Positions 4,197-31,055 are shown, counted from the stretch's first letter. The stretch: DNA of 62,372 nucleotides from Desulfuromonadales bacterium (GCA_034370465.1 JAXMLA010000040.1:1-62372), one strand, 5' to 3'. Program-made: numbers and translations. Notes: generated by a model from the sequence alone, not told the origin.

Positions 4197-4952
4197 CTAC
4201 AACCGTCCCAGCATCCGCAGCAACCCGTCGAGCACCGTGTAAGGATGGGGGGGGCAGCCGGGGATGTAAAGATCGACGGGGAGGAGATCCCCGATGCCGT
4301 TATGGACTTCCGGGCTGTTGGCGAAGGGGCCGCCGCTGATCGCGCAGGCGCCGGAGGCGATGACGATCTTCGGTTCCGGGACGGCGGCGTAGGTGTCGAG
4401 AAGGGCGCTGCGCATATTCTCTGTGACCGGGCCGGTGACGAGCAGGCCGTCGGCATGGCGGGGGGAGGCGACGAACTGGATGCCGAAGCGGCCGAGATCG
4501 AAGACCAGGGTGCCGAGGACATTGATGTCGGCTTCGCAGGCATTGCAGCCGCCGGCCGAGACCTGGCGCAGCTTCAGCGAGCGGCCGAAGAGGCGCAGCA
4601 TTTTGGCGTGGAGGGCGGTTGCCAGTTGTCCTTCCTTCTCCCCTGTCCACAACCACTGGCGTTGACTGGCGGCGAGACGGTGATCAGTGCTGAAAGATAA
4701 AGCGCCGTGCGGGCAGGCGGTTGCACACTCCGGGCAGAAGAGACAGCGGCCGAGGTCGATCTGCAGGGCATTGTCGCGCCGGGCGAGGGCGGCAAAGGGA
4801 CAGCGCGCCAGGCAGTCCTGACAATCTGGCGGGCATTTTTCCTGATCAATAATCGGCCGTCCCCGGAATCGTGCCGGGAGGGTCGGTGCTTCCTGCGGGT
4901 ACTTTCCGGTGCGGTGTCCTTGGCGGATGCGCTCACGAATGATGCTCAGCAT
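4197..4952 (-). CDS. Fusion of a HycF/HyfH-like 2x[4Fe-4S] ferredoxin module and a NuoB/HycG/HyfI-like small subunit
   Basis: The N-terminus RTGKYPQEAPTLPARFRGRP with CPPDCQDCLARCP and CLFCPECATACP is HycF-like. The C-terminal domain carries GGCNACEADI, ASGACAISGGPF and IPGCPPHP, which are NuoB/HycG cluster ligands. Confidence 0.88.
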   Translation of the reverse strand: MLSIIRERIRQGHRTGKYPQEAPTLPARFRGRPIIDQEKCPPDCQDCLARCPFAALARRDNALQIDLGRCLFCPECATACPHGALSFSTDHRLAASQRQWLWTGEKEGQLATALHAKMLRLFGRSLKLRQVSAGGCNACEADINVLGTLVFDLGRFGIQFVASPRHADGLLVTGPVTENMRSALLDTYAAVPEPKIVIASGACAISGGPFANSPEVHNGIGDLLPVDLYIPGCPPHPYTVLDGLLRMLGRL

Positions 4953-4963
4953 GGTAAGACTCC

Positions 4964-6493
4964 TTACAGATCAAAGCCGCAATACGACAGATTAAAGCTC
5001 TTGTTGCACAAGGGAAAGTCGGAAATCTGTTGGTCGCGTAACGCCATCGCCAGACCGCTCCAGTTATGGAAGGAGGGGTCGATAATTTTGTAGCGATCGA
5101 ATTTCCCCGCAGCATCGGTGATCCCCACCTGCACCAACTCCCCCCGCCAACCTTCGACCATCGCCACCGCCAGAGTATCCGCCGCCAGGGGCGGAAGTTC
5201 GCGCCGCAGCTCTCCCCGCGGGAGATCCCGTAAACTTTGTTTGAGCCAATGCAGCGATTTATAGATTTCCCGGCGGCGGATATTGGCGCGGGCAAAGACG
5301 TCACCGCTATCCTCGATCACGCAGTGGTCGTAGGTTTCGATATAGCCGCCGTAGGGATAGTGCAGCCGCACATCCCGGGTCAGACCGCAGGCGCGCGCCG
5401 CTAACCCGACAATCCCCAGAGCCTCGGCGTCATCGATGCTCAGGGTGCCGATCCGTTCCATGCGCGACAGGGCCGAGGGGGCGTCGAAGAAGAGTTCGAT
5501 GGCGCCGCGGGTCTCCGTTTCAATGATGTGCAAGCGGTTCAGCATGCGCGCAGCGAGGTCATCATCAAGAGCAAAACCGACCCCGCCGGGGCGCATCAGG
5601 CCACGGCCGAAGCGACTGCCGCAAATTTCCGCGGTGAGGTTGAGGTAGTCGCCGCGCAGCCGTCCGCAGAAAGAGGCGGTCGGTAAAAAACCGACATCGC
5701 CGGCCAGGGCGCCGATATCGCCGACATGATTGGCTAAACGTTCGAGTTCGAGGGCGATCGCCCGGATCGCCTCGGCGCGGGGGGAGGGAGCAATTCCCGC
5801 CAGCGTTTCGAGGACCATGCAGTAGGCGCTGGTATGCCCGGCGGTGGTATCGCCGGCGACGGTTTCGAGTTGATAGATTGATGTTGGATGCGGACCACCG
5901 AGCAGGAGCTGTTCGACGCCGCGATGCTGATAGCCGAGGGAGATCTCCAGGTGCATGACGTTTTCGCCGTGACACTGAAAACGGAAGTGCCCCGGTTCGA
6001 TCACCCCGGCATGGACCGGACCGACGGCAACTTCATGGACTTCCTCTCCTTCGACCCGATAATAATCCATCTCCCCCGGCAGCGGTCTTTCCTCGCCGCG
6101 ATTCCAGGCGTCGCTGCCGGCGCGCCAAGGGCGATGGAAGCGGACCGGCTTGAACCAGGGGTGACCGGTCGGGACGACCCCGTAGGTTTCGGCAATCTCC
6201 CGTTCAAAGAGGTGGAGTTGCGGGCAGAGCGGGGTGAGGGAGGGGAAGCTGCGGCCGATGGTGCAGCGCAGAATCAGCAGTTCCCCTTCCCAGCAGCGGG
6301 CGATGATGGCAAAGAGTTCGAGATCATCCCCTTGCGGCAGCGGCCGTGCAAAGTAGGCGGCAATCCGCCCCCCTTCCTTGCACAATTCGAGACAGAGTTC
6401 ACCAAAGCGACTATATGCCAGAACCGGGAGGGTGGTCAGGGCAATAGATCCGGGATTTTTAGCGATCTTGCCAAATTCTTGCGGAGTCATCAT
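4964..6493 (-). CDS. HycE/HyfG/NuoCD-like large subunit lacking the NiFe cysteine ligands (Ehr-type)
   Basis: GPVHAGVIEPGHFRF and LGYQHRGVE are present. I set the start at ATG 6493, which forms an ATGA overlap with the upstream stop at 6490-6492. The protein has VAGDTTAGH where RxCGxCxxxH is expected. The C-terminus is FNLSYCGFDL where DPCxxCxxR is expected. Confidence 0.88.
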   Translation of the reverse strand: MMTPQEFGKIAKNPGSIALTTLPVLAYSRFGELCLELCKEGGRIAAYFARPLPQGDDLELFAIIARCWEGELLILRCTIGRSFPSLTPLCPQLHLFEREIAETYGVVPTGHPWFKPVRFHRPWRAGSDAWNRGEERPLPGEMDYYRVEGEEVHEVAVGPVHAGVIEPGHFRFQCHGENVMHLEISLGYQHRGVEQLLLGGPHPTSIYQLETVAGDTTAGHTSAYCMVLETLAGIAPSPRAEAIRAIALELERLANHVGDIGALAGDVGFLPTASFCGRLRGDYLNLTAEICGSRFGRGLMRPGGVGFALDDDLAARMLNRLHIIETETRGAIELFFDAPSALSRMERIGTLSIDDAEALGIVGLAARACGLTRDVRLHYPYGGYIETYDHCVIEDSGDVFARANIRRREIYKSLHWLKQSLRDLPRGELRRELPPLAADTLAVAMVEGWRGELVQVGITDAAGKFDRYKIIDPSFHNWSGLAMALRDQQISDFPLCNKSFNLSYCGFDL

Positions 6494-7914
6494 TGCACCT
6501 CCAACAGGACGACGGCATCTTCGAGTAAACGGCGCAGCGGCGGCGGGAGATAAAGCCCGAGCAGCAGAACCAGGAGGAGAAGGAGCAGGGGGGGCGCCAC
6601 CAGCAGAAAAGTATCCTGGAAGGCCGGATCGGTGGTGGCGTCCGGCGTCCCCTGCACCATCCCCAGCACTGTCGATCCCATGCCGATAAAGACGATCGCC
6701 AGCAGGAGGAGGAAGGCCCCGGCCAGCCAGTAATGATTGTCGGCAAAGATGCCGCGCAGAATCGTAAACTCGCTGATAAACGGCCCGAAGGGGGGCGAAC
6801 CGGTCACCGCGAAGAAGCCGGCGAGAAAGATCGTCCCCGAGATCGGCAGCCGCCGCATGGCGCCATGAATGTCGGTAATCTTCTTGCTGGCAAAGGCGCG
6901 ATGGATATTGCCGACCGAAAGGAACATGCACCCCTTGGTCAGGGCATTATTGACCAGATGCAACAGGGCGCCGAAGGTGGCGAGGCCGCCGATGCCGATA
7001 CCGATGGCAAGGATCCCCATATGCTCGACACTCGAATAAGCGAGCATCCGCTTCACATCGTTCTGACGTACCATGAAGATGGCGGCGACCAGCAGGGAGA
7101 GGACACCGAGAACGAGGAGTTGCTGCCGGGCCAAATCCCCGAGCCCGGCGGCATTCATCACCTGCACGGCGCGCAGGATGGCGAGAAAGGAGATACTCGT
7201 CAACCCGCCGGCCAGGAGAGCGCCGATCATCCCCGGTGCTTCTCCATAAGCGTCCGGCTTCCAGCTGTGCAGCGGCGCCAGTCCCATCTTGGTGCCGAAT
7301 CCGACGAGCAGGAAGACAAAGCCGGCCCGCAGCCAGGCGGTGGAAAGGGCCGAACTCTCGGCCAGGAGGTGGTCAAATTGCAGGGTCACCTCGACCCCTC
7401 CCAGCAGCGCCGCATAAGCAAGAAAGAGCATGCCGAGGAGGGCGAGGGCAATACCGACAGAACAGATCAGGAGATACTTCCAGGTCGCTTCTATCGATAA
7501 GCGGTTGCGGTTGTAATAGATCAGCGGAGCGCTGGCGATCGTCGTCGCCTCGACCGCCATCCACAGGAGCCCGAGGTGGCGGGCTGCTGTGGCCAGGGTC
7601 ATCGCCGACAGAAAGATCAGCAGACAGGCGACGATGGTGCGGGTCCCCCGATCGCTGCGCAGTTGCAGATAGCTGACAGCATAGATCGAACAGGCAAAGT
7701 ACAGGGTCGAGGTCACCAGCAGAACGAGCAGTGACAAGGCATCGAGACCGATCCAGAGATTGCCGGTGAGGGGATTGCAGGCGATGACCACTACGTCGCC
7801 GAGATGCAGGGTGCCGGCCAGGGGGAGGAGCCAGCAGCGCAATCGTTCTGACGGCAGAAATAGAGCCAGCGTGCCGAGCAACAAAGGGAAGAGGATCAGA
7901 AAAAGGAGCATCAT
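6490..7914 (-). CDS. NuoM/NuoN/HyfF-like antiporter-type membrane subunit
   Basis: 474-aa polytopic protein with LAYSSVEHMGILAIGIG and WKPDAYGEAPG motifs typical of the NuoLMN/Mrp family. It abuts the neighbouring genes with no gap. Confidence 0.85.
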   Translation of the reverse strand: MMLLFLILFPLLLGTLALFLPSERLRCWLLPLAGTLHLGDVVVIACNPLTGNLWIGLDALSLLVLLVTSTLYFACSIYAVSYLQLRSDRGTRTIVACLLIFLSAMTLATAARHLGLLWMAVEATTIASAPLIYYNRNRLSIEATWKYLLICSVGIALALLGMLFLAYAALLGGVEVTLQFDHLLAESSALSTAWLRAGFVFLLVGFGTKMGLAPLHSWKPDAYGEAPGMIGALLAGGLTSISFLAILRAVQVMNAAGLGDLARQQLLVLGVLSLLVAAIFMVRQNDVKRMLAYSSVEHMGILAIGIGIGGLATFGALLHLVNNALTKGCMFLSVGNIHRAFASKKITDIHGAMRRLPISGTIFLAGFFAVTGSPPFGPFISEFTILRGIFADNHYWLAGAFLLLLAIVFIGMGSTVLGMVQGTPDATTDPAFQDTFLLVAPPLLLLLLVLLLGLYLPPPLRRLLEDAVVLLEVQ

Positions 7915-8556
7915 CTATTCCTTTAACGCCGAAAGACGTTCGGTATTCACCGTCGAGAATTCGCGATTGATCTGGTTAATGACGATCCCCATGACAAAGA
8001 TGCCGACCATCATGTCGAGAAGGACCCCGGCCTCGACCATTAGTGGCATCGCTTCAGAGAGGAGGATGCCGAAGATGAAGATGCCGTTTTCAAGGATGAG
8101 ATAGCCGACGACCTGGGTGATCGCTTTGCGCCGGGTCATGAGCAGGAGAAATCCGCTGAAAAAGGTCGCTAATGCAGTTGGGATAAAGAGACTGCCGCGG
8201 TGTTCGGCAATCAGCGGCAGGTAATTGGCAAAGATGAAAGCGCCGGACGTGACCAGGGCGCCAAGGGCGAGGGTCGGGATAAAACCGATCAGCGGTTCCA
8301 TCTCGCGACGGATACGCACTTCGCGGATGGTGCGGGTGAGCAGGGTCGGAATCAGGATCGCCTTGATCAGCAGTGCCCAGAAAGAGAGGATCAGGGTGTG
8401 CAGGGAAAGTCCGTGCGCCACCAAGGGCAGCAAGGCCAACAGTCCCCCCTGGATGGCGACGGCACGGATACAGGCGACCAGACGCGAGGTGCCGAGGGTG
8501 TAGAAGTTGATCAGCACCACCAGCAGCAGGATAAGATTACCCAGTTCGATCATCAT
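7915..8556 (-). CDS. HyfE-like small polytopic membrane subunit
   Basis: 213 aa and entirely hydrophobic. Its size and its position between the HyfC-like and HyfF-like genes match E. coli hyfE. Confidence 0.65.
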   Translation of the reverse strand: MMIELGNLILLLVVLINFYTLGTSRLVACIRAVAIQGGLLALLPLVAHGLSLHTLILSFWALLIKAILIPTLLTRTIREVRIRREMEPLIGFIPTLALGALVTSGAFIFANYLPLIAEHRGSLFIPTALATFFSGFLLLMTRRKAITQVVGYLILENGIFIFGILLSEAMPLMVEAGVLLDMMVGIFVMGIVINQINREFSTVNTERLSALKE

Positions 8557-8592
8557 TGAAAAATCTCCCGTCGCAGCTTAAAAAATCCGACC

Positions 8593-9504
8593 TCAACGCA
8601 AAACCAGTACCAGGGCAAAGATCGAAATCATCGTCGTGCCGATCAACAGCTGCGGAATGCGCACCATTTGCAATCGCGCCATCACCGATTCGACGACACC
8701 GATCGCCACGGCAATGAAGAGCATCCCGGCCATGAAGACCACCGCATCGACGCCGGGGTTGCCGCTGTCCCAGGGGAGGATCAGCCGCACCAGGAGGGCG
8801 CCGAGGACGAGCAGCTTGAGGCTGGCGCCGTAAAGGATCATGGCGAAGGCCGGTCCGCTGTGATCGAGGACCATGACTTCGTGAATCATTGTCAACTCCA
8901 GATGGGTATTCGGATCGTCAAAGGGAATCCGGCAATTCTCGACGAGGAGGACGACAAAGAGGGCGATCACCAGTAAGAGCAGGGATGCCCCGGCGCTTTG
9001 CCAGGACGTGACCAGATGTTTGCCCAAAAGATCATTCAGTGAGAAACCGCCGGAGAGCCGGACGAGGACGATCAGGGCAAAGAGGAGGGTCGGTTCGACC
9101 AAACAGGCAAAGGTCACCTCTCGCGCCGCCCCCATCCCTTCAAAGCTCGACCCGGTATCGAGGGCCGAGCTGGCGGTAAAGAAACGGGCTAAAGCAAATA
9201 AGTATACAAAGAGGATGAGATCGCCGTTAAAGGAGAAGGGGGCGGGAATCGCGCCAAAAGGGATCAGCAGCGCCGCCAGCAATGGGACAATGAGGCCGAC
9301 GATCGGTCCGGCGCGAAAGACCCAGGTAGTGGTGCGGCTGATGACAAAGCCCTTCTGCCACAGCCGGTGCAGGTCGTAGTACGGCTGCAGCAGCGGCGGT
9401 CCCTTGCGGCCGGCAAAGAGTGCCTTGGTCCGGGTGATCACGCCGAGGAGGAGCGGCGGGAAGAGGAGCACTATCAGGAGATGGAGGAGGAGTTGCAGGA
9501 GCAT
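8593..9504 (-). CDS. NuoH/HycD/HyfC-like membrane subunit
   Basis: 303 aa and polytopic. ENCRIPFDDPNTHLELTMIHE matches the PFD...E.EL loop of the NuoH/HycD family. Confidence 0.85.
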   Translation of the reverse strand: MLLQLLLHLLIVLLFPPLLLGVITRTKALFAGRKGPPLLQPYYDLHRLWQKGFVISRTTTWVFRAGPIVGLIVPLLAALLIPFGAIPAPFSFNGDLILFVYLFALARFFTASSALDTGSSFEGMGAAREVTFACLVEPTLLFALIVLVRLSGGFSLNDLLGKHLVTSWQSAGASLLLLVIALFVVLLVENCRIPFDDPNTHLELTMIHEVMVLDHSGPAFAMILYGASLKLLVLGALLVRLILPWDSGNPGVDAVVFMAGMLFIAVAIGVVESVMARLQMVRIPQLLIGTTMISIFALVLVLR

Positions 9505-9514
9505 CGTTACCTCG

Positions 9515-11485
9515 CTAGCGCCCGCTGATAATCAGCAAAGCGATTAAAGTCAGGACGACATACAGCAGATAAAGACTGGTGACGCCGTTTTGCAGCCAGG
9601 TGCGCAGCCAGGTCGCCGCTATGGCGAGAACGCGGAAGAGCGGCAACAGCAAACGGTCAAGGACGCTGTCGGGGGTGTGGCTGGAAAAATCTGTCCGGGG
9701 CGGGAAGAGCCCGATTGTTCTGCCGCCATGCTCACTGCTCCACAGCCCGAAACGGAAGAGTTTCACCAAGGCATCGGCAAAAGAAGACGCGGTGTACTGC
9801 ATCCTGGCGGTCGGCCACAGGTAGCCGCAGCCCCAGGTCGGCTGCTGAGCGTCAGCCAGGCAACTGCGGCGGTGCAGCCACCAGCTGAGAAGGCCACTGA
9901 AAAGGATCAGAGCCGTGCCGAGGATACCGATCCAGATCAGGGAGGTCATGCTGGCGCTGATCGCCTCGCCGCCGCTTATCGGTGCCCAGGCCAAAGCGGC
10001 ATCCTTGAGCATGGGGGCGAAGAGCCAGGGGAGGAGGCCAATACTGAGGCAGGCGGCGAGAAGGATGAGCATCGCCGCGCGCATGAGCCGGGTGGCATCG
10101 TGCCCGTTGGCCGCCGCCGGAGTGCGGGGGGCGCCGAGAAAGACGATGCCGAAGACCTTGACGAAACAGGCCAGGGCGAGGCCGCCGATCAGGGCAAGGA
10201 CCGGGGCGACCAGAATCGCCAGACTCAGCGATAAACGCTGATCGATCAGGGCGCGAAAACTCCCCTGATAGATGAACCATTCACTGATAAAACCGTTAAA
10301 GGGGGGGAGACCACAGATGGCGACAGCTCCGCCGAGAAAGAGGGCGGCCGTCCACGGCTGCGAACGGATCAGTCCGCCCATCTGGTCGATCTCGCGGGTG
10401 CCGGTGGCGTGAATCACCGCGCCGGCACTCAAAAAGAGGAGCGATTTAAAGAGGGCATGATTGACAACATGAAGCAGGGCGCCGGCCAGGCCGAGCATTG
10501 CCAACTCCGGCAATCCGGCACTGCGGCCGAGGAGGGCGAGTCCCAGTCCCAGGGCGATGATGCCGATATTCTCGACGCTGTGATAAGCGAGGAGGCGTTT
10601 GAGATCGTGCTGGGCCAGGGCGTAGGCCACGCCGAAGATGCCGGTGATGACTCCAAGGACGATCAGAACCCAGCCCCACCACAGCGGGATCGTCGCAAAG
10701 AGCGAGGTAATTCGCACCAGGCCGTAAATGCCGGTCTTGATCATGATCCCGGAAAGGAGGGCAGAGATATGACTCGGGGCGGCAGCATGGGCACCGGGGA
10801 GCCAGATATGCAGCGGCATGATCCCGGCCTTGAGACCGAAGCCGAAGAGGGCGAGGAGAAAGATCGCCGTGGTGACCGCGCCAGCGGGGAGGGTGCCGGC
10901 AGCGGGGAGGGAGAAGCTGCCGCAACTGAGGTCGAGGAGGGCAAAGAGGGCAAAGAGAGCGAGGGTGCCGGTATGCGTTGCCACCAGATAGATGAAGCCG
11001 GCACGGCGTGTTGCTTCGAGATCATCCTCGGTGGTGATGAGAAAGTAGCTGGCCAGGGCCATGATCTCCCAGGAAAGGAGGAAGAGGATGCCGTTTTGCG
11101 CAGTCAGGACCAGGGCGATGGCGGCGGCGATCAGGCCGTGAAAAAGGCGTAGTTTGCGGCTGTTCTCAGGATGCTGCGTTTGCGGCCAGTAATCCTTGCC
11201 AAAGATAACGCTCATCGCAAAGACGAGAAGGAAAGGGAGGAGAAAGATCAGGGAGATGGCATCGATGCGAATCAGCAGTTCACCGCCGGGGATGTTCCAG
11301 CCGGCGCGCAGCACAGTTTCGCCGGCGTTAGTCGTGCAGAGGAGCAGGCCGATAAAGGTTGTGATCGTCCCGAGCAGCGCCAGGATTTCGGCAAACGCTT
11401 GTCCCCGATCATCCCGGCTCGACATAAACAGGCCGGGAAGACCCGAGAGTGCGATGATGACGATGCCGCTGAGGAAGAAGATCAT
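9515..11485 (-). CDS. NuoL/MrpA/HyfB-like antiporter-type membrane subunit (paralogue 2)
   Basis: 656 aa. IWLPGAHAAAPSHISALLSG, LAYHSVENIGIIALG and ALFKSLLFLSAG are present. Confidence 0.88.
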   Translation of the reverse strand: MIFFLSGIVIIALSGLPGLFMSSRDDRGQAFAEILALLGTITTFIGLLLCTTNAGETVLRAGWNIPGGELLIRIDAISLIFLLPFLLVFAMSVIFGKDYWPQTQHPENSRKLRLFHGLIAAAIALVLTAQNGILFLLSWEIMALASYFLITTEDDLEATRRAGFIYLVATHTGTLALFALFALLDLSCGSFSLPAAGTLPAGAVTTAIFLLALFGFGLKAGIMPLHIWLPGAHAAAPSHISALLSGIMIKTGIYGLVRITSLFATIPLWWGWVLIVLGVITGIFGVAYALAQHDLKRLLAYHSVENIGIIALGLGLALLGRSAGLPELAMLGLAGALLHVVNHALFKSLLFLSAGAVIHATGTREIDQMGGLIRSQPWTAALFLGGAVAICGLPPFNGFISEWFIYQGSFRALIDQRLSLSLAILVAPVLALIGGLALACFVKVFGIVFLGAPRTPAAANGHDATRLMRAAMLILLAACLSIGLLPWLFAPMLKDAALAWAPISGGEAISASMTSLIWIGILGTALILFSGLLSWWLHRRSCLADAQQPTWGCGYLWPTARMQYTASSFADALVKLFRFGLWSSEHGGRTIGLFPPRTDFSSHTPDSVLDRLLLPLFRVLAIAATWLRTWLQNGVTSLYLLYVVLTLIALLIISGR

Positions 11486-11491
11486 AAGGGC

Positions 11492-13486
11492 CTAGAGTCC
11501 TTTGCTCGCAAGAATGCTCCACAGCATGAGTCCGGCACAACAGATGAAGATATAAAGGAGATAGAGATGTTGTTTACCTTGTTGCAGCCAGCGGAGTTGC
11601 ACACAGCGCTCGGCCAGATAGGAGAAGAGGGGTTGGTAGCCGCGCTGGAGAATGACTTCCTGGGAATGCTGGAAAAATTCGACAGTCGCTGGAAAGAGGG
11701 TGCGCGGCCGTTTTTTACTGACCTCCGGTTGCAGCGTTTGCGGCAAAAGATGGTGATGGGCCAAGCCGCTGAAACTCTCGGCTGTATAAGCCATCTGTGC
11801 TGTCGGACGGGGGAAGGCGCATCCCCAGGTCGCAGCGATCGTCGTCGGACGGCGCCGCTGCAGAGCGACCAAAAGGAGGGCGACCATGATGAGAGCGGCG
11901 CAAAGGATCACCCCCCAGAGGCCGATCTGCCCGAGTTGGCTAAAGGTTGCAACCAGCTCCGGGGCCGCGGTCGGCGTCAGTTGGCTGAGAACCGGGGAAA
12001 GGAGATGAAGAGTCAGTTGCGGCAGGAGGCCGATAATCAGGCAGCCAAAGAGGAGGAGGCGCATCGGCCAGAGCATCGTTGTAGACGCATCATACGCCCG
12101 GGCCGCTGCCGGCGAGCGCGCTTCACCGAGGAGGGCAATGCCGATCAAGCGGGTAAAGGTCACCACCGCCAGGGTGCCGACGACGCCGAAGAGCGCCAGC
12201 ACCATGCTCATCCCCAAGGCACTGACGCCGCTCATGGCGACCCCGGCGTGGAGGAGACCAAGATAGATCAACCACTCGCTGACAAAGCCGTTTAAAGGGG
12301 GGAGGGCAGCGAGGGCGACGCTGCCGCCGATGATCAGCAGGCCGGCCTGCGGCATGCGTCGCAGCAACCCCCCCATTTGATCGAGATTGCGGGTGCCGGT
12401 GGCATGGAGCAGGGTGCCGGCCCCGAGAAAGAGGAGTCCCTTGAAGAGGGTGTGATTCCAGAGGTGGAGGAGAGCGCCGGCAAAGGCCAGGGCCGCAACT
12501 ACCGGCAACTGCTGCGCTGTTGCCAGGACACCGAGGCCGATCCCCATAAAGATGATGCCGATATTCTCCACCGTCGAATAAGCCAGGCAGCGTTTCAGAT
12601 CCTTTTGCACCATCGCCATGGCGATACCGTACAGTGCTCCGAGCAGGCCGAGGGCGAGGATGATCGCGCCCCAAAGTGCTGACAGGGGGGGGAGCCAGGT
12701 CATCACCCGCAGGATGCCGTAGATGCCGGTCTTGACCACGACTCCGGACATGACCGCCGAGACATGACTCGGTGCGGCCGGATGGGCATCGGGAAGCCAG
12801 ATATAGAAGGGGAAGAGACCGGCTTTGATGCCGAAACCGACCAGGGCCAGGGAGAAGAGGATCGCCGTGAGTGTCGGCCCGGCCTGAGTCAGCGGGGTGA
12901 AGTCGGCAAAATTAAGGCTTCCGCAATGGCTGCCGGCAAGGAGAAAAAAAGCAAGGATCAGTAACAGGCCAAAATGGGCGACCAGGAGATAAAGCCAGGC
13001 TGCCTGACGGACCTCTGCATGATGATGATCGTAACTCACCAGGAAAAAAGAGGAGATGGTCATGATCTCCCAGGCGGCGATAAAGAGGAGGGCATTGGCC
13101 GCGGTCACTACCAAGGTCAAGGCTGCAACCAGCAAACAGTAAAGGGAGAAATGAGCTCCGAGATTTCGTCTTTTGCTATCTTCGTCGAGATAGGCGACTG
13201 CATAAATGGCGGCAAGGGGCGGGAGGATAGTGACGGGGAGCAGGAAGAAGCCGGTAAGGGGGTCGACTTGCAGGGCGAAGGCGCCGCCGGGGACGAGCCA
13301 GGTGAAGTTGGCGATGAGCGTTTCCTGGTTGAGCAAGACTCGCAGAGCCGTCGTCGCGGTTAATAACGAAGCGACGATGATGGCAGTCAGCGCGGCAGTC
13401 AGGGCAATACGGTGGTGTTTCCCGGCGATCAGGCTGATCAAAGCGCCAATTATCAGGAGTGCCAGGGCCGCCACTAAAAAGCTCAT
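11492..13486 (-). CDS. NuoL/MrpA/HyfB-like antiporter-type membrane subunit (paralogue 1)
   Basis: 664 aa. IWLPDAHPAAPSHVSAVMSG, LAYSTVENIGIIFMG and TLFKGLLFLGAG are present. The start ATG at 13486 overlaps the upstream stop (ATGA). Confidence 0.88.
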   Translation of the reverse strand: MSFLVAALALLIIGALISLIAGKHHRIALTAALTAIIVASLLTATTALRVLLNQETLIANFTWLVPGGAFALQVDPLTGFFLLPVTILPPLAAIYAVAYLDEDSKRRNLGAHFSLYCLLVAALTLVVTAANALLFIAAWEIMTISSFFLVSYDHHHAEVRQAAWLYLLVAHFGLLLILAFFLLAGSHCGSLNFADFTPLTQAGPTLTAILFSLALVGFGIKAGLFPFYIWLPDAHPAAPSHVSAVMSGVVVKTGIYGILRVMTWLPPLSALWGAIILALGLLGALYGIAMAMVQKDLKRCLAYSTVENIGIIFMGIGLGVLATAQQLPVVAALAFAGALLHLWNHTLFKGLLFLGAGTLLHATGTRNLDQMGGLLRRMPQAGLLIIGGSVALAALPPLNGFVSEWLIYLGLLHAGVAMSGVSALGMSMVLALFGVVGTLAVVTFTRLIGIALLGEARSPAAARAYDASTTMLWPMRLLLFGCLIIGLLPQLTLHLLSPVLSQLTPTAAPELVATFSQLGQIGLWGVILCAALIMVALLLVALQRRRPTTIAATWGCAFPRPTAQMAYTAESFSGLAHHHLLPQTLQPEVSKKRPRTLFPATVEFFQHSQEVILQRGYQPLFSYLAERCVQLRWLQQGKQHLYLLYIFICCAGLMLWSILASKGL

Positions 13487-14232
13487 AAGCCGTTATTATC
13501 CTCTTCGGGGGGGAAGTACCCCCAGCGATCGATGGTGAATTCCTCGTAATGCCGGTTGCGCCAGATAAAGTAGCAGAGTCCGGCGACAAAACAACCGGCC
13601 GCCAGGGAAAAGAGCGGATAAATCCCGTAGTAGGTATAACTGACGCCGCCGCTGATCCCGCCGATGACAAATCCCGAAAAGATGACCAGTAGCAGGGCGA
13701 GCTTCCAATATTCGATGCGTTGATAGCGAATCCAGTGCCCGAGCAAAACGCCGATATCCGTCACCATCCCGGTGACGTGGGTTGTGCGCAGAATCAGCCC
13801 GCAGTAACTGCTGGCCATGGCATTCTGCAGTCCGCAAGCCATGGCGGCAACGGGGATGCCGCTGCGGGTATTGTTGTTGATCAGCAGCGTTGCCGCAATG
13901 AAGAGGAGACAGGCTTCGGTCATCATCGCCACCCCGTAGCGGCGTCCCGGTTGAACACGGGTCCCGCCGATGATTAAACCGCTCACGATCGCCCCGAAGA
14001 GAAAACCGATAAAGATCGAAAAGGCTCCCCAGAAATCAGCGCGATTGCTCGAAGAGATATCGATGGCAATCCGCGCGACCGCGCCGGTCATGTGACTGAC
14101 CGGAACGTGATAGATGCCAAGGAGGAGGACATTAACAAAACCGGCCGCAGCCGCGAGCATGGCACCGTAAATAAAGACCCATGGCCGTTCTTTAAAAGTT
14201 TTGTTCTGTTCTTTGTAAGGGATATAGGGCAT
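13483..14232 (-). CDS. DUF1275/YoaK-family membrane protein
   Basis: 249 aa with about 6 TM segments. AAAGFVNVLLLGIYHVPVSHMTGAV, MASSYCGLILRTTHVTGMVTDIG are typical of the YoaK family. Its stop overlaps the start of the next gene. Confidence 0.8.
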   Translation of the reverse strand: MPYIPYKEQNKTFKERPWVFIYGAMLAAAAGFVNVLLLGIYHVPVSHMTGAVARIAIDISSSNRADFWGAFSIFIGFLFGAIVSGLIIGGTRVQPGRRYGVAMMTEACLLFIAATLLINNNTRSGIPVAAMACGLQNAMASSYCGLILRTTHVTGMVTDIGVLLGHWIRYQRIEYWKLALLLVIFSGFVIGGISGGVSYTYYGIYPLFSLAAGCFVAGLCYFIWRNRHYEEFTIDRWGYFPPEEDNNGL

Positions 14233-14238: not shown

Positions 14239-14916
14239 TTATTCGCTCAGGCATTCTTCTTCCGCACGCAATGTTGTCATAATCTCTTCCCGCCCGCCGG
14301 GGGCCGCCAGCACCCGGCGCAGGACCGGTCGTTGCAGAAGAAAATTCAGCCGCGCGTAAAGGTAAAGATGAGCCGGAAGATCCGGCGCCATAATGGTGAA
14401 GAGGGTATCGACCGGCAGATTGTCGAGGGCATGAAAATCGACTTTGTTTTCGAGAAAGCAGAGGGTGACAGTGGCGCGACTGATCGGCAGGATGCCGGGA
14501 TTGCGCAGATGCGGCAGGGCGATGCCGTTGCCGATTCCAGTCGAACAGAGATTTTCTCTGACAATCAAGAGCTTGAGGAGTTTATCGCGATCAATACCGT
14601 CAGCCAGGCGTAAATGCGTGACAGTATCAGCCAGTACCTGATCGCGGGTGCTGCCGCTGATGCGATAAAAGATTCCACCGGCTTCCAGGGCTGCACTCAG
14701 ACTGATTCGGGGCGAGGCGGGAGCTGCCGGAGAGAGGAGGGATTCCGGTTTCGCCCCGACCGGCCGCGAGGTTGTCCACTCCATGAGCTCGGCGCGATTA
14801 AAGCGGTACTGCTCGTGGATGCGGTAGGCCGGGATGACCTCTTTTTGAATCCAGCGGTAGATGGTCTTTTCTGAAACGGAGAGGAGGCGCGCCGCCTCTT
14901 TGACTGAAAGGTTCAT
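14239..14916 (-). CDS. Regulator with an N-terminal MerR/excisionase-type HTH fused to a PTS EIIA(Ntr)/fructose-type (EIIA-2) domain
   Basis: LSVKEAARLLSVSEKTIYRWIQKEVIPAYR is an HTH_17-like motif. GIGNGIALPHLRNPG carries the phosphorylatable His motif of PTS_EIIA_2. The stop lies 6 nt before the DUF1275 start. Confidence 0.85.
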   Translation of the reverse strand: MNLSVKEAARLLSVSEKTIYRWIQKEVIPAYRIHEQYRFNRAELMEWTTSRPVGAKPESLLSPAAPASPRISLSAALEAGGIFYRISGSTRDQVLADTVTHLRLADGIDRDKLLKLLIVRENLCSTGIGNGIALPHLRNPGILPISRATVTLCFLENKVDFHALDNLPVDTLFTIMAPDLPAHLYLYARLNFLLQRPVLRRVLAAPGGREEIMTTLRAEEECLSE

Positions 14917-14925
14917 AATCCTCGC

Positions 14926-14988
14926 CTGTCACATAGTGTCATCTTTGGACATTTGTGGACACTAGCAACTTTTCGTGACAGATGTCAA
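14926..14988 (-). promoter_or_regulatory. Candidate sigma70 promoter (TTGACA-18-TAGTGT on the minus strand) embedded in nested inverted repeats
   Basis: On the plus strand, ctgtcac (14926-32) pairs with gtgacag (14975-81), and tagtgtc (14934-40) pairs with gacacta (14958-64). The minus-strand TTGACA is at 14983-88. The site lies directly upstream of the regulator gene. Confidence 0.4.
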
Positions 14989-27981: not shown

Positions 27982-28001
27982 CGTATGAACCTTCCTTTTT
28001 G

Positions 28002-28241
28002 TCAAAGAACCGATTCTGATCTGGATCGTTCGATAGTCTGCTCGCGCTGGGCTTTGTATTGGTCATACGTCGTGTTGTTCACGCGGTCGAGGCACTGCTG
28101 AGTATCGGAAGAATTCATATTATTCTCATAGCATTGTTGTCTCTGCGCCTCTTGGAACCCGGCATACCATGCTTGATAGGTACACCCTTGGGCAGTTAAG
28201 CAAAGGGTGATGACGAGCATTCGCAATATAGTGATTATCAT
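28002..28241 (-). CDS. Small putative lipoprotein (79 aa)
   Basis: It has a signal peptide with the lipobox-like LTAQGC. The mature part is Q/N-rich with two QQC motifs. I recognise no family. Confidence 0.5.
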   Translation of the reverse strand: MIITILRMLVITLCLTAQGCTYQAWYAGFQEAQRQQCYENNMNSSDTQQCLDRVNNTTYDQYKAQREQTIERSRSESVL

Positions 28242-28355
28242 TTTTGCTCCTTTTTATCGACTCCGTGGTAGGAATGTCGGTCACTCGGCACTCACCGCAC
28301 GGTCTCTTTCTTGGCTTGGAGGCTCAACCCACTATCGCGACAAAAATCTCCACTA

Positions 28356-28958
28356 TTACAAAGACTCGGGTAAATCGAGCCACAATTCCTGCAGGCTAGT
28401 GTACATCTTCAATCGCTCGACCACACTCTCCACTGGAGCCGCAAAGATCGCTTCGTAGATGAATTCATCGGCCGCCGGGTCCATGGCAAAGGCGAGCTGC
28501 TCTTTTTGGGTATTGAATTGCGCGTTGATGCCGTTGCTGTTGCCGCGCGCATCGACGCGGATCCATTTGCCGAGGGTGGCGAGGTAGATGGCATTTAACC
28601 CGTGCAGAACCGTTTCGTTGTCATCGGCAGCGGGATCGCGGCGTAAGACCTGGTAGCAGAAGCCGGCGGGGATGCCGACCGCCCGGAGCAAGGCGGCCAA
28701 AAGGTGGCTCTTGGCAAAGCAGATTCCAGTCCCCTGTTGCAGCACTTCGCTCGCCGTGCAGGTGATAATGTCGGTGTCGACATCATCGGAGTGGGGGATG
28801 GTGTCCCGCACCCATTCGTACAGACAACGGGCTTTGGCGACTTCGTCGGCTGATGAAGCTGTCAGTTCCAGCGCTTTTTGCCGGACAGCGGGGGTCTGCC
28901 AGTCGATGATGGCGTCGGATTGGAGGTAGTCGTTTAAGTCGTCGGATTCAGGGTACAT
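28356..28958 (-). CDS. Transglutaminase-like cysteine-protease-fold protein
   Basis: ASEVLQQGTGICFAKSHLLAALLRAVGIPAGFCYQ is the transglutaminase-core Cys motif. The start at Met 28958 is preferred over 29147/29150 because 28960-29146 is AT-rich and looks non-coding. Confidence 0.75.
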   Translation of the reverse strand: MYPESDDLNDYLQSDAIIDWQTPAVRQKALELTASSADEVAKARCLYEWVRDTIPHSDDVDTDIITCTASEVLQQGTGICFAKSHLLAALLRAVGIPAGFCYQVLRRDPAADDNETVLHGLNAIYLATLGKWIRVDARGNSNGINAQFNTQKEQLAFAMDPAADEFIYEAIFAAPVESVVERLKMYTSLQELWLDLPESL

Positions 28959-29146
28959 GTCGGGACTCTCATTGAGGTTTGTTTTTGTGGTCAACGGTGA
29001 GAATTGACCGGATGGCGGTCTTGTTTTCTGGTTGGGATGTCTACACTCGGTAAATAAATCCGTCCCCTTTTCTCGGAGGTTAATCATCAGAGGAAGCCTT
29101 TTTTGGGTGTAATTTATGGGGTCGCTGTCCTCGCTTATTATAATCA

Positions 29147-29857: not shown

Positions 29858-29925
29858 TTGGCATGTTCCTTAGCGGAAGGTTATCAGCGTCAAATTCTCG
29901 GCTCCTGTAAAGGGGACAGGCTACT

Positions 29926-30402
29926 TTAACGATCTTTTACTGGTCTTCCTCTCCGCCTCATTGTTGATTCCGACGACCAAGGCCACTCAGCCAGGCTGGG
30001 GACTATTCCGGCCCAAAGCGGATTACCTTCTACATAACGGGCTACAGTCAACAAGTGGTCATTCTCTTCCACTATGAAACTCTTGTAACGTCCTTGCCAG
30101 ATGTGCCCGCTGCTACCGTAATGACGATGGTATCGGCGAACGTGACTGGTCATGAACCATTGCATCCCCCGACTCAAGTCTCCGGCCTGCACCGTACGCA
30201 GCAGCAGATGGAAGTGGTTCGGCATCAGACAGTAGGCAAATAACTCTATGGAGTAGCGTTTTGTTGTTTCGCCTAGTAAATTGATAAAAGAACGGTAGTC
30301 GTCGTCTTTATGAAAAACCTGTTGCCGACCATTTCCAGTTAAGGAGTGCACAAGAGGCAACCCTCCCAAGCTCAAAAAAAAATCCGTCGCTTTCCCACTC
30401 AC
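29926..30402 (-). CDS. REP-associated tyrosine transposase (RAYT; IS200/IS605 TnpA Y1-type), solitary
   Basis: The HUH motif is MPNHFHLLL and the catalytic Tyr helix is ARYVEGNPLWAGIV. LTGNGRQQVF is also present. There is no tnpB and no terminal IS structure. Confidence 0.85.
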   Translation of the reverse strand: MSGKATDFFLSLGGLPLVHSLTGNGRQQVFHKDDDYRSFINLLGETTKRYSIELFAYCLMPNHFHLLLRTVQAGDLSRGMQWFMTSHVRRYHRHYGSSGHIWQGRYKSFIVEENDHLLTVARYVEGNPLWAGIVPSLAEWPWSSESTMRRRGRPVKDR

Positions 30403-30757: not shown

Positions 30758-30763
30758 CTCTGC

Positions 30764-31030: not shown

Positions 31031-31055
31031 TCGACTACCATTAAGGAGAAATCTC

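What the first reader, a model, noticed from the sequence alone, without database searches (positions are those of the whole stretch)
4197..13486. Seven-gene Hyf/Hyc-colinear membrane complex of the hydrogenase-related (Ehr) type with no catalytic partner in sight
The minus-strand gene order is NuoL/HyfB-like, a second NuoL/HyfB-like, NuoH/HyfC-like, HyfE-like, NuoN/HyfF-like, HycE/HyfG-like, and a HycF+HycG fusion. This mirrors E. coli hyfB-I. The genes are packed with 0-36-nt gaps or ATGA overlaps. The large subunit cannot bind NiFe (see the next finding). The window has no hyp or hycI maturation genes. It also lacks formate dehydrogenase, CO dehydrogenase and NuoEFG-type input modules. Comparative-genomic literature on Geobacter hydrogenases and complex I evolution calls such complexes Ehr (energy-converting hydrogenase related). 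To my knowledge their substrate and physiological role remain undetermined. That makes this a known-unknown respiratory module rather than a characterised enzyme.
Basis: partly seen in the sequence, partly recalled or inferred. Interest (0 to 1): 0.7.

Follow-up and report, generated by a model that had tools for sequence, protein, structure and literature searches.

The report
Ehr hydrogenase-like membrane complex operon
This is an intact copy of the Ehr complex, a hydrogenase-shaped, ion-pumping membrane enzyme that has lost its nickel-iron site; the family has been known since the Geobacter genomes but its substrate is still unknown, and here it comes with a conserved regulator and operator that I did not find described.

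Summary
Seven tightly packed minus-strand genes (4197-13486) encode two HyfB-like subunits, then HycD/NuoH-like, HyfE-like, HyfF-like and HycE-like subunits, and a HycF+HycG fusion. The large subunit has none of the four NiFe cysteines. It nests in a large cysteine-less clade, not among intact group 4 hydrogenases.

This is the Ehr complex described in Geobacter sulfurreducens (GSU0739-45: ehrA-1, A-2, B, C, D, L, S). Its function is still uncharacterised in the literature I could search.

What I add:
- The complex is not decaying. All 12 FeS cysteines and the antiporter pump residues are conserved, the former NiFe pocket is near-invariant across phyla, and dN/dS is 0.05-0.16.
- No redox partner gene is conserved in 80 related loci from more than 10 phyla, and none lies in the window.
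- The unit is nine genes. It starts with an HTH + PTS-EIIA regulator, present in 37 of 41 complete loci. Upstream of that gene lie tandem TGTCCA boxes overlapping a promoter. A DUF1275 membrane gene follows the regulator.

Best reading: a self-contained, ferredoxin-fed, ion-translocating oxidoreductase whose acceptor binds in a metal-free pocket. Menaquinone is the best guess and is unproven. This is a new member of a known kind, of moderate interest.

The parts
14946..14988 (-). Candidate promoter and operator. The -35 hexamer TTGACA is at 14988-14983, followed by an 18-nt spacer and the -10 hexamer TAGTGT at 14964-14959. The -10 overlaps a tandem direct repeat TGTCCAcaaaTGTCCA at 14961-14946.
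   Evidence: The exact repeat occurs only once in the 62-kb window. The same arrangement lies upstream of the regulator gene in all six other Desulfuromonadales loci, exactly in L084 and L086-L089 and with mismatches in both boxes in L085. Tandem TGTC(C) boxes occur in 12 of 49 regulator-upstream regions, from several phyla, against about 0.1% of random 120-nt windows of the same loci. The function of this element is inferred, not shown.
14239..14916 (-). Regulator (REG, 225 aa): an N-terminal HTH_17 (excisionase/MerR-like) DNA-binding domain fused to a PTS EIIA-2 (PtsN-like) domain.
   Evidence: Pfam gives HTH_17 at 6e-16 and PTS_EIIA_2 at 2e-19. NCBIfam matches PtsN at 1e-13. The GxGxAxPH motif, which I take to be the PtsN-type phospho-histidine motif, is conserved in at least 90% of 46 homologues. 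The gene is present in 37 of 41 complete related loci and is directly adjacent in 35. Public gene calls show it in L084-L089.
13483..14232 (-). DUF1275 (YoaK-like) membrane protein, 249 aa. Its stop overlaps the start of ehrA-1 (ATGA).
   Evidence: Pfam gives DUF1275 at 1.4e-29. The gene holds the same position in D. versatilis L084 and in the close relatives L087 and L088. It is absent in Geopsychrobacter, Syntrophotaleaceae and Geoalkalibacter. It recurs independently in three Phycisphaerae Ehr loci. dN/dS is 0.08.
11492..13486 (-). EhrA-1: HyfB/NuoL-like antiporter-type subunit, 664 aa.
   Evidence: NCBIfam 'hydrogenase 4 subunit B' at 6e-161. 38% identity to E. coli HyfB. The TM5 Glu140, TM7 Lys221, TM8 Lys252 and TM12 Glu404 are present.
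9515..11485 (-). EhrA-2: second HyfB/NuoL-like antiporter-type subunit, 656 aa. Most related loci that carry a single A gene carry the A-2-like type.
   Evidence: NCBIfam 'hydrogenase 4 subunit B' at 2e-170. 37% identity to HyfB over 606 aa. Glu140, Lys219, Lys250 and Glu402 are present and are conserved family-wide. For locus patterns.
8593..9504 (-). EhrB: HycD/HyfC/NuoH-like membrane subunit, 303 aa.
   Evidence: Pfam NADHdh at 7e-34. 33-36% identity to HycD/HyfC. The acidic loop motifs DTGSxFEGMG and E..R.P.DDP.THLELTM.HE are conserved in at least 95% of 56 homologues.
7915..8556 (-). EhrC: HyfE-like membrane subunit, 213 aa, with a NuoK-like C-terminal half.
   Evidence: NCBIfam 'hydrogenase 4 membrane subunit' at 1e-21. 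Pfam Oxidored_q2 at residues 127-212. The ENG and LD motifs are conserved in 63 homologues.
6490..7914 (-). EhrD: HyfF/NuoN-like antiporter-type subunit, 474 aa.
   Evidence: NCBIfam 'hydrogenase 4 subunit F' at 2e-89. 35% identity to HyfF. Glu122, Lys209 and Glu382 are present; the TM8 position is Ser, where HyfF has Asn.
4964..6493 (-). EhrL: HycE-like large subunit (NuoC-like plus NuoD-like domains), 509 aa, with none of the four NiFe-ligand cysteines.
   Evidence: The best solved relative is HycE, PDB 7z0s_E, by sequence (1.3e-42) and by fold (E = 7e-21, TM 0.71). The L1 motif is ETVAGDTTAGH and the L2 motif is NLSYCGFDL. G214, D215, H220, S503, Y504, G506 and D508 are invariant in 78 homologues from many phyla. 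It sits in the cysteine-less clade.
4197..4952 (-). EhrS: fusion of a HycF/NuoI-like 2x[4Fe-4S] domain (residues 1 to about 105) with a HycG/NuoB-like small subunit (about 112-251).
   Evidence: Pfam Oxidored_q6 at 1e-28 plus Fer4 families. PDB matches are HycG 7z0s_G at 1e-32, MbhJ at 3.5e-32 and HycF 7z0s_F at 9e-12. All 12 Cys are conserved in at least 67 of 70 homologues, and the fusion is present in nearly all loci.

Best explanation
The locus encodes an Ehr (energy-converting-hydrogenase-related) complex. It is the orthologue, in an uncultured Desulfuromonadaceae bacterium, of the Geobacter ehrA-1/A-2/B/C/D/L/S cluster.

Proposed mechanism, with each step marked shown or inferred:

1. 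A soluble low-potential carrier, most likely ferredoxin, docks on the HycF-like domain of EhrS. This is inferred from the lack of any conserved partner gene and by analogy with Ech and Mbh.
2. Electrons pass through two [4Fe-4S] clusters to the proximal [4Fe-4S] cluster of the HycG-like domain. The ligands are shown to be conserved; the electron path is inferred.
3. Electrons reach an acceptor bound in the former NiFe pocket at the EhrL/EhrS/EhrB interface. The pocket holds no metal-binding cysteines, but it carries a near-invariant set of polar residues (Glu166, His169, Asp215, Thr216, His220, Ser503, Tyr504, Asp508). The conservation is shown; the role of these residues is inferred.
4. Turnover drives H+ or Na+ translocation through EhrB and EhrC and three intact antiporter-like subunits (EhrD, EhrA-2, EhrA-1). 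The reaction may also run in reverse. The pump residues are shown; the coupling is inferred.

The acceptor is not established. Menaquinone is my best guess for this lineage, at about 0.3. That would make the enzyme a ferredoxin:menaquinone oxidoreductase, possibly reversible.

Expression is probably controlled by the co-transcribed HTH + EIIA(Ntr)-like regulator acting at tandem TGTCCA boxes over the promoter. This would tie the complex to the phosphorylation state of the nitrogen-related PTS. This last step is inferred.
For: **Identity as Ehr**
- Subunit assignments.
- No NiFe cysteines.
- Placement in the cysteine-less clade.
- Same seven-gene composition as GSU0739-45.
- The same nine- or eight-gene block in cultured Desulfuromonadales (D. 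versatilis, Geopsychrobacter, Geoalkalibacter).

**A functional redox enzyme, not a relic**
- 12 of 12 FeS cysteines are conserved in at least 67 of 70 homologues.
- dN/dS is 0.045-0.16 for all nine genes against L088.
- Pocket residues are invariant in 78 sequences from more than 10 phyla.
- The GD[ST] and NKSFxLSY.G motifs hold across 150 representatives of 50%-identity clusters.

**Pump competence**
- TM5 Glu, TM7 Lys, TM8 Lys and TM12 Glu are present in A1 and A2.
- Glu, Lys and Glu are present in D.
- These residues are conserved family-wide.

**Self-contained input**
- No FDH, HycB/HyfA-like, CODH or NuoEFG gene lies in the window.
- None is conserved next to the cluster in 80 loci.

**Regulation**
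- The regulator gene is present in 37 of 41 complete loci.
- The His of its GxGxAxPH motif is conserved.
- The operator-like repeat is strongly enriched upstream of the regulator gene.
Against: - No experiment exists for any Ehr complex.
- The quinone guess is weak. The residues that bind the quinone head group in complex I (T. thermophilus Nqo4 His38 and Tyr87) align with Ile165 and Gly214 here.
- Ehr-type complexes have been reported in Riflemargulisbacteria, where no complete quinone biosynthesis pathway was found (PMC6349859). That subgroup may differ from this one.
- Ferredoxin as donor rests on analogy only.
- The AlphaFold model is poor exactly at the pocket: pLDDT is below 50 for residues 139-188 and 477-509. 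No geometry could be examined.
- G. sulfurreducens Ehr subunits are more abundant on formate. This could point to a formate-linked role.
Confidence: 0.6

Rival explanations
1. A formate-linked complex (FDH-Ehr). The complex takes electrons from a formate dehydrogenase encoded elsewhere. It would act like formate hydrogenlyase but with an acceptor other than protons.
For: All Ehr subunits of G. sulfurreducens were more abundant with formate than with H2-containing donors (PMC7894505). An FDH-Ehr complex was proposed for Riflemargulisbacteria and Saganbacteria (PMC6349859). The closest solved relative of EhrL, and the best-scoring match of EhrS, are the FHL subunits HycE and HycG.
Against: No FDH gene, and no HycB/HyfA-type connector ferredoxin, lies in the window. 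None is conserved beside the cluster in 80 loci across more than 10 phyla. The G. sulfurreducens FDH is described as periplasmically oriented, the wrong side of the membrane for direct docking. The proteomic correlation is indirect.
Confidence: 0.12
2. A sulfur or polysulfide reductase of the MBS/Mbx type. In this reading the proximal [4Fe-4S] cluster itself reduces a sulfane-sulfur substrate in the cysteine-less pocket, as I recall was proposed for P. furiosus MBS.
For: MBS is a precedent for a hydrogenase-derived respiratory complex with no NiFe site. From my own knowledge, Desulfuromonas and Geobacter species respire elemental sulfur. EhrL and EhrS do match the MBS chains (6u8y_L at 5e-18, 6u8y_J at 5e-20).
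Against: EhrL is much closer to HycE (1e-42) than to MbsL (5e-18). The gene content differs from my recollection of the mbs/mbx cluster, which is larger (about 13 genes) and carries small Mrp-type subunits. All four cysteines of the proximal cluster are conserved in EhrS. The family is spread over Planctomycetota, Verrucomicrobiota, Hydrogenedentota and others, which I do not know as sulfur reducers.
Confidence: 0.08
3. A degenerate, non-functional hydrogenase remnant drifting under relaxed selection, as stated for G. sulfurreducens KN400 in PMC13194489.
For: The catalytic NiFe ligands are lost. Missense mutations accumulated in ehrA-2 and ehrB during 17 years of growth on an electrode.
Against: dN/dS is 0.045-0.16 for every gene. 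All reading frames are intact and match relatives in length. All 12 FeS cysteines, the pump residues and the replacement pocket are conserved across phyla at 50-60% overall identity. The proteins are detected and differentially abundant in Geobacter.
Confidence: 0.03
4. A true H2-evolving or H2-consuming enzyme that uses non-canonical ligands, or a fragment of a canonical 14-subunit nuo operon continued elsewhere.
For: Overall homology to both families. Databases often annotate the large subunit as 'Ni,Fe-hydrogenase III large subunit' or 'NADH-quinone oxidoreductase subunit C'.
Against: None of the four Cys ligands is present, and the wider family shows no conserved alternative metal-binding set: the remaining Cys505 varies between C, S and A. 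The window holds no hyp or hycI genes. The cluster is bounded by a regulator and ppc on one side and recD/recB on the other. There is no NuoA, NuoJ, NuoE, NuoF or NuoG. EhrS has the hydrogenase-type CxxC motif, not the tandem CC of NuoB. The complex I quinone ligands are absent.
Confidence: 0.02

Closest known systems
Ehr (Ech-/energy-converting hydrogenase related) complex of Geobacter sulfurreducens, GSU0739-GSU0745 (ehrA-1, ehrA-2, ehrB, ehrC, ehrD, ehrL, ehrS)
   Same: The same seven subunit types with matching published descriptions: a NuoL-like EhrA-1, a HyfE-like EhrC, and large and small subunits. Both are reported to lack the NiFe centre. Both come from the same order-level lineage. 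The same block, with the same regulator, is seen in cultured Desulfuromonadales.
   Different: I could not retrieve the GSU sequences, so orthology rests on composition and taxonomy rather than a direct alignment. This lineage, together with D. versatilis, has an extra DUF1275 gene translationally coupled to ehrA-1. Whether Geobacter has the HTH-EIIA regulator was not checked.
E. coli formate hydrogenlyase complexes: Hyc (hydrogenase 3, PDB 7Z0S) and Hyf (hydrogenase 4)
   Same: These are the closest characterised relatives of every subunit, by sequence and by fold. The gene order is colinear with hyfB, C, E, F, G, H, I. EhrL retains the hydrogenase-type beta1-beta2 loop (EPGHFR), and EhrS retains the CxxC proximal-cluster motif.
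   Different: There are no NiFe cysteines. There is no HycB/HyfA connector, no FdhF partner, and no HycH, HycI or HyfJ. There is no HyfD; instead there is a second HyfB-type subunit. HycF and HycG are fused into one chain. The TM7 Lys is present in all three antiporter-like subunits, whereas HycC has Leu208.
Respiratory complex I and its ferredoxin-dependent 11-subunit relatives (photosynthetic NDH-1, Fpo-type)
   Same: The same modular design: a NuoB/C/D/I-like peripheral arm, NuoH-like and NuoK-like subunits, and NuoL/M/N-like pump subunits. The NiFe site is lost, so the proximal [4Fe-4S] cluster becomes the terminal cofactor. Ferredoxin-dependent relatives work without a NuoEFG input module.
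   Different: EhrL is closer to HycE than to NuoD (1e-42 against 1e-33 or weaker). The positions of the quinone ligands His38 and Tyr87 hold Ile and Gly here. EhrS lacks the tandem-Cys N2 motif. There are no NuoA or NuoJ genes.
Pyrococcus furiosus MBS/Mbx (membrane-bound sulfane sulfur reductase, PDB 6U8Y)
   Same: A group 4 hydrogenase derivative without a functional NiFe site that still works as a ferredoxin-oxidising, ion-translocating respiratory enzyme. It shows that cysteine-less relatives can be active.
   Different: Sequence similarity is much lower (5e-18). From memory, the gene set is different and larger, with Mrp-type small subunits. MBS is archaeal. The Ehr pocket motifs (GD[ST], NKSFxLSY.G) were not compared with MbsL here.

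Membership tests
Ehr complex (hydrogenase-related, NiFe-less) | Large and small subunits homologous to those of group 4 [NiFe]-hydrogenases | tested here: met
   EhrL matches HycE at 1.3e-42 by sequence and TM 0.71 by fold. EhrS matches HycG at 1e-32 and MbhJ at 3.5e-32.
Ehr complex (hydrogenase-related, NiFe-less) | Absence of the conserved L1 and L2 cysteines that coordinate Ni and Fe | tested here: met
   The four positions hold A, T, S and G in the window. 78 of 78 related large subunits have 0-1 Cys at these positions.
Ehr complex (hydrogenase-related, NiFe-less) | Membrane arm of NuoH-like plus Mrp/NuoL-type antiporter-like subunits encoded in the same cluster | tested here: met
   EhrB matches NADHdh. 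EhrA-1, EhrA-2 and EhrD match Proton_antipo_M. EhrC is HyfE/NuoK-like.
Ehr complex (hydrogenase-related, NiFe-less) | Geobacter-type gene set and order A-1, A-2, B, C, D, L, S | tested here: met
   The window's order matches the published subunit list for GSU0739-45. It also matches the gene calls in D. versatilis, Geopsychrobacter, Syntrophotaleaceae and Geoalkalibacter. A direct alignment to the GSU proteins was not possible.
Ehr complex (hydrogenase-related, NiFe-less) | Large subunit groups phylogenetically with cysteine-less sequences, apart from bona fide group 4 hydrogenases | tested here: met
   In a neighbour-joining tree of 94 sequences the window's EhrL sits inside the 0-1 Cys clade. 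The 4-Cys proteins P0318, P0363, P0368, P0369 and P0388 form the sister group, and HycE/HyfG lie further out. The tree is rough and has no bootstrap. HydDB was not available.
Group 4 [NiFe]-hydrogenase (Hyc/Hyf, FHL type) | L1 RxCGxCxxxH and L2 DPCxxCxxR/H motifs with four Cys ligands | tested here: not met
   The window has ETVAGDTTAGH and NLSYCGFDL where HycE and HyfG have RVCGICGFAH and DPCYSCTDR.
Group 4 [NiFe]-hydrogenase (Hyc/Hyf, FHL type) | Maturation genes (hypA-F, specific endopeptidase) and an FDH or HycB-type partner | tested here: inconclusive
   None lies in the 62-kb window. The rest of the genome is unseen. In E. coli hypF and fdhF also lie away from hyc (hypF; fdhF: from memory).
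Respiratory complex I (Nuo) | NuoA, NuoJ and NuoK membrane subunits, with or without the NuoEFG input module, in one operon | tested here: not met
   tBLASTN with E. coli NuoA, E, F, G, J and K finds nothing in the window. Only a NuoK-like half of EhrC is present. The cluster is bounded by unrelated genes.
Respiratory complex I (Nuo) | Quinone-binding His (Nqo4 His38) and Tyr (Nqo4 Tyr87) in the NuoD homologue, and the tandem-Cys N2 motif in NuoB | tested here: not met
   The Nqo4 positions align with Ile165 and Gly214 (alignment). EhrS has GGCNACE, a CxxC motif, not CC.
MBS/Mbx | The mbs/mbx-type gene set of about 13 genes with Mrp-type small subunits, and closest similarity to MbsL/MbsJ | tested here: not met
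   There are only seven structural genes and no small Mrp-type subunits. MbsL scores 5e-18 against 1e-42 for HycE. The Mbs gene list is from memory.

The most novel reading that the evidence does not exclude
Ehr is not a relic. It would be a widespread class of respiratory ion pump, found in more than 10 phyla, with a new metal-free, Asp/Ser/His-lined catalytic pocket fed by a three-cluster FeS wire. It would run as a reversible ferredoxin:(mena)quinone, or ferredoxin:unknown-acceptor, oxidoreductase. It would be switched by a dedicated PTS(Ntr)-type phospho-regulator through TGTCCA operator boxes. In Desulfuromonas and Geobacter it would supply the unassigned link between the ferredoxin pool (2-oxoglutarate:ferredoxin oxidoreductase, nitrogenase) and the membrane. 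The second EhrA subunit would raise the ion/electron ratio for uphill ferredoxin reduction.
Probability: 0.25. Interest if true: 0.75.

Novelty: new member of a known kind. Interest (0 to 1): 0.42.

Why it matters
Ehr complexes are among the most widespread members of the complex I / group 4 hydrogenase superfamily that have no assigned reaction. Nearly all of the best 150 lack the NiFe cysteines.

Knowing their substrate would change energy budgets drawn for Geobacter and Desulfuromonas, Planctomycetota, Verrucomicrobiota, Nitrospira and many candidate phyla. It would also bear on how complex I evolved from hydrogenases.

This window does not solve that problem. The comparison does give three usable handles:
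1. Evidence of strong purifying selection on the cysteine-less pocket, which argues against the 'non-functional' reading still found in a 2026 paper.
2. Evidence that the complex needs no dedicated partner enzyme.
3. A conserved regulator and operator pair, which offers an experimental route to the inducing condition.

Tried and rejected
- **Gene calling.** My first greedy longest-ORF calls lost EhrD to an antisense ORF and to the 5'-extended EhrL ORF. I replaced them with homology-supported calls.
- **Literature searches.** Searches on 'Ehr' were swamped by electronic health records and Ehrlichia. Locus-tag and phrase searches returned only genome, proteome and MAG papers, with no biochemistry.
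- **DUF1275/YoaK literature.** Nothing useful.
- **Rfam scan of the whole window.** No hits.
- **Promoter and terminator scan.** Promoter-like sites were at the level of the shuffles (6 found against 3.9 expected). Terminator-like sites were about twice the shuffle mean (19 against 10.4), but nearly all lie inside the coding sequences and I give them no weight. The scan missed the conserved promoter because its -10 hexamer is atypical.
- **AlphaFold2 model of EhrL.** The fold is confident but pLDDT is below 50 at residues 139-188 and 477-509, exactly the pocket. I made no claim about cavity geometry.
- **G. sulfurreducens protein sequences.** I could not retrieve them.
- **Genome-wide co-occurrence.** I could not test co-occurrence with nuo, rnf, hyp, quinone biosynthesis or PTS-Ntr genes.
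- **Inorganic-carbon role.** I considered and set aside a bicarbonate-related role. It was prompted by a SulP-STAS-PII transporter next to Ehr in 6 of 80 loci and by ppc upstream in the window. The association is too sparse, and the ppc adjacency is not conserved in relatives.

Full report
**1. What is in the sequence**

Nine ORFs run head to tail on the minus strand between 14916 and 4197.

| Gene | Coordinates | Length |
|---|---|---|
| EhrA-1 | 11492-13486 | 664 aa |
| EhrA-2 | 9515-11485 | 656 aa |
| EhrB | 8593-9504 | 303 aa |
| EhrC | 7915-8556 | 213 aa |
| EhrD | 6490-7914 | 474 aa |
| EhrL | 4964-6493 | 509 aa |
| EhrS | 4197-4952 | 251 aa |

- The mechanical ORF for EhrL extends to 6931. 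The ATG at 6493, overlapping the stop of the preceding gene (ATGA), agrees with the public gene calls in four relatives.
- The junctions between the seven genes are gaps of 6, 10, 36, 0 and 11 nt and one 4-nt overlap.
- Pfam and NCBIfam and BLASTP against E. coli K-12 proteins taken from NC_000913.3 give these best matches:
  - HyfB at 38% and 37% identity for the two long antiporter-like proteins.
  - HycD/HyfC at 33-36% for EhrB.
  - HyfE at 33%, C-terminal half only, for EhrC.
  - HyfF at 35% for EhrD.
  - HycE at 28% over 490 residues for EhrL.
  - HycF at 30% (residues 1-99) plus HycG at 47% (residues 113-251) for the fusion protein EhrS.
- 'Mirrors hyfB-I' needs one qualification. There is no HyfD equivalent, and the additional pump subunit is a second HyfB-type gene.

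**2. The large subunit cannot bind NiFe and is not a stray hydrogenase**

- The best solved relative of EhrL is E. coli HycE (7z0s_E). This holds by sequence (1.3e-42) and by fold of an AlphaFold2 model (Foldseek E = 7e-21, TM 0.71; model pLDDT 72.5).
- In the alignments, the HycE motif RVCGICGFAH corresponds to ETVAGDTTAGH. DPCYSCTDR corresponds to NLSYCGFDL. The four ligand positions hold Ala, Thr, Ser and Gly.
- The complex I quinone ligands are also absent. Nqo4 His38 and Tyr87 align with Ile165 and Gly214.
- An exhaustive search of 1.84 billion cluster representatives found 869 at E <= 1e-30.
- Nearly all full-length sequences among the best 150 lack the cysteines. They share the motifs x-G-D-[ST] and DFP.[CIV]NKSF.LSY[CSA]G.DL.
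- The nearest 4-Cys proteins (P0318, P0363, P0368, P0369, P0388; 36-38% identity) share the DFPLINKSF motif.
- In a rough neighbour-joining tree, the window's protein sits inside the cysteine-less clade. The 4-Cys proteins form the sister group, HycE/HyfG lie further out, and NuoCD is the outgroup.

**3. It is the known Ehr complex**

- The closest relatives are Desulfuromonadaceae MAGs (L001, 92%). Cultured Desulfuromonadales follow: D. versatilis at 71%, and Geopsychrobacter and Desulfuromonas sp. AOP6 at 65-66%.
- Papers on G. sulfurreducens describe a seven-gene 'Ech-hydrogenase-related (Ehr) complex', GSU0739-45. It has a NuoL-like EhrA-1, EhrA-2, EhrB, a HyfE-like EhrC, EhrD, EhrL and EhrS.
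- Those papers say it lacks the NiFe centre and has never been investigated functionally.
- MAG studies say the same for Ehr in other phyla.
- Six further searches found no biochemical or structural characterisation.
- I could not align the GSU proteins directly. The assignment rests on composition, order, defining motifs and taxonomy.

**4. It is under selection and looks catalytically competent**

- Against the orthologous block in L088, dN/dS is 0.045-0.16 for all nine genes. dS is 0.7-1.1, so it is near saturation but still usable.
- In 70 EhrS homologues, all 12 cysteines are conserved in at least 67. Eight lie in the two ferredoxin-type motifs and four in the HycG-type motif.
- In 78 EhrL homologues from many phyla, two regions are essentially invariant:
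  - the beta1-beta2 loop VAVGPVHAG.IEPGHFRF;
  - the residues replacing the NiFe site (Gly214, Asp215, His220, Ser503, Tyr504, Gly506, Asp508).
- Cys505 varies between C, S and A in the wider family. No alternative metal site is therefore evident.
- The antiporter-like subunits keep the canonical TM5 Glu, TM7 Lys, TM8 Lys and TM12 Glu (A-1, A-2), or Glu, Lys and Glu (D). By contrast HycC has Leu at the TM7 position. These residues are conserved family-wide.
- This contradicts the statement in PMC13194489 that Ehr is non-functional and drifting.

**5. No partner enzyme, here or elsewhere**

- Pfam scans of the remaining ORFs in the window found no hyp, hycI, FDH, CODH or NuoEFG-type gene.
- What those scans did find was:
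  - recB and recD;
  - ppc;
  - two ABC transporter genes, likely cydDC;
  - an MFS transporter;
  - an acyl-ligase/acyltransferase;
  - biotin synthesis genes;
  - secA and argJ;
  - a MoxR/VWA cluster.
- tBLASTN with the E. coli proteins found nothing outside 4197-13486.
- I analysed 80 related loci from Myxococcota, Hydrogenedentota, Planctomycetota, Verrucomicrobiota, KSB1, Acidobacteriota, Spirochaetota and others, using my own homology-supported gene calls.
- The only recurrent genes are A (one or two copies), B, C, D, L, S and one more gene, the regulator described in section 6. Everything else is lineage-specific housekeeping.
- The flanks differ even among the closest relatives. The block therefore behaves as a self-contained unit.
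- This favours a diffusible donor such as ferredoxin docking on the HycF-like domain, as in Ech and Mbh. That is an analogy, not a test.

**6. A conserved regulator and operator**

- The gene at 14239-14916 encodes an HTH_17 domain fused to a PTS EIIA-2 (PtsN-like) domain.
- Homologues are present in 37 of 41 related loci that have a complete cluster and at least 1.2 kb of upstream sequence. They are immediately adjacent in 35.
- In several Planctomycetota loci the cluster is split into two divergent units, and the regulator stays with L and S.
- The GxGxAxPH motif, which I take to be the PtsN-type phospho-histidine motif, is conserved in at least 90% of 46 homologues.
- Upstream in the window lies TTGACA-18 nt-TAGTGT. 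The -10 hexamer overlaps TGTCCAcaaaTGTCCA at 14961-14946. This is the only exact match to the repeat in the window.
- The same architecture precedes the regulator gene in all six other Desulfuromonadales loci.
- Tandem TGTC(C) boxes 10-11 nt apart occur within 120 nt upstream of the regulator gene in 12 of 49 loci, from several phyla. The background is about 0.1% of random 120-nt windows from the same loci (binomial p about 2e-21).
- I infer an autoregulated operon controlled through the nitrogen-related PTS. I did not find this described in the papers searched.

**7. DUF1275**

- A 249-aa DUF1275 membrane protein (13483-14232) overlaps ehrA-1 by ATGA.
- It is conserved at that position in D. 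versatilis and in the nearest MAGs.
- It is absent in Geopsychrobacter, Syntrophotaleaceae and Geoalkalibacter.
- It recurs in three Phycisphaerae Ehr loci at other positions.
- Its role is unknown. It may be an accessory subunit.

**8. Mechanism and verdict**

- The best-supported reading is a ferredoxin-fed, three-cluster electron wire. It ends at a metal-free, proton-connected pocket at the L/S/B interface and is coupled to ion translocation through three antiporter-like modules.
- The acceptor is unknown. Menaquinone is my best guess (about 0.3). The evidence against it is listed in the Best explanation section.
- The rivals are less supported:
  - an FDH-linked complex;
  - an MBS-like sulfur reductase;
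  - a relic;
  - a cryptic hydrogenase or a nuo fragment.
- The finding is a new member of a known but uncharacterised kind. The conserved regulator and operator and the selection evidence are modest additions.
- Interest is moderate (0.42). A specialist would not be surprised to see ehr in a Desulfuromonas relative, and the open question is no more testable from this MAG than from Geobacter itself.

Noticed in passing
window 14239-14988 (minus strand); loci L003-L089: An HTH_17 + PTS-EIIA(Ntr)-like regulator gene heads the Ehr cluster in 37 of 41 complete loci across many phyla. Upstream of it are tandem TGTCCA boxes overlapping a sigma70-like promoter. I did not find this pairing described in the papers searched.
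   Followed up: yes
window 13483-14232 (minus strand); L084, L087, L088; L031, L061, L069: A DUF1275 (YoaK-like) membrane gene is translationally coupled to ehrA-1 in this lineage. It recurs independently inside or beside Ehr clusters of Phycisphaerae, where the ORFs are longer (389-437 aa against 249 aa). The C-terminal extension looked STAS-like by eye, but Pfam matched only the DUF1275 domain.
   Followed up: partly
L085 1-2029 (Geopsychrobacter electrodiphilus): Directly upstream of the regulator and ehr block lies a second large subunit, with a weak NiFeSe_Hases Pfam hit, and a separate 169-aa small subunit. This looks like a bona fide group 4 hydrogenase next to the cysteine-less Ehr.
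   Followed up: no
L002, L044, L054, L070, L073, L074: A SulP-family transporter with STAS and P-II-like domains sits next to the Ehr cluster or its regulator in six loci, most of them Planctomycetota or Verrucomicrobiota. This might hint at an anion or bicarbonate link, but the association is sparse.
   Followed up: partly
L039, L044, L054, L076 (Planctomycetota): The cluster is split into two divergent units, D-C-B-A on one strand and regulator-L-S on the other. The regulator is therefore kept with the peripheral-arm genes.
   Followed up: partly
L001, L087, L088, downstream of ehrS: In the closest relatives ehrS is followed by a GAF-SpoIIE phosphatase (1069 aa), a STAS protein and an anti-sigma kinase, a partner-switching module (Pfam-annotated in L087 and L088; in L001 only a same-sized 1069-aa ORF was seen). 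In the window this is replaced by convergent recD/recB, so the ehr block has moved relative to its flanks.
   Followed up: no
window 28000-36000: A lower-GC stretch (0.51-0.56, against about 0.60-0.65 elsewhere). It holds an IS200-like transposase (29926-30402), a DsrE-like gene (31360-31878), a rhodanese-like gene (31962-32471), DUF554, and an HD-GYP/HAMP sensor. It may be acquired DNA with sulfur-transfer genes.
   Followed up: no
window 37403-40969 (minus strand): A biotin synthesis cluster: BioW (6-carboxyhexanoate-CoA ligase), a class I/II aminotransferase (BioF-like), an alpha/beta hydrolase and a methyltransferase (BioH-like and BioC-like).
   Followed up: no
EhrS residues 40-51 (window about 4800-4835): The first ferredoxin motif of the HycF-like domain has the spacing Cx3Cx2Cx3CP rather than, as I recall, the CxxCxxCxxxCP of HycF and NuoI. 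This spacing is conserved across the family.
   Followed up: partly
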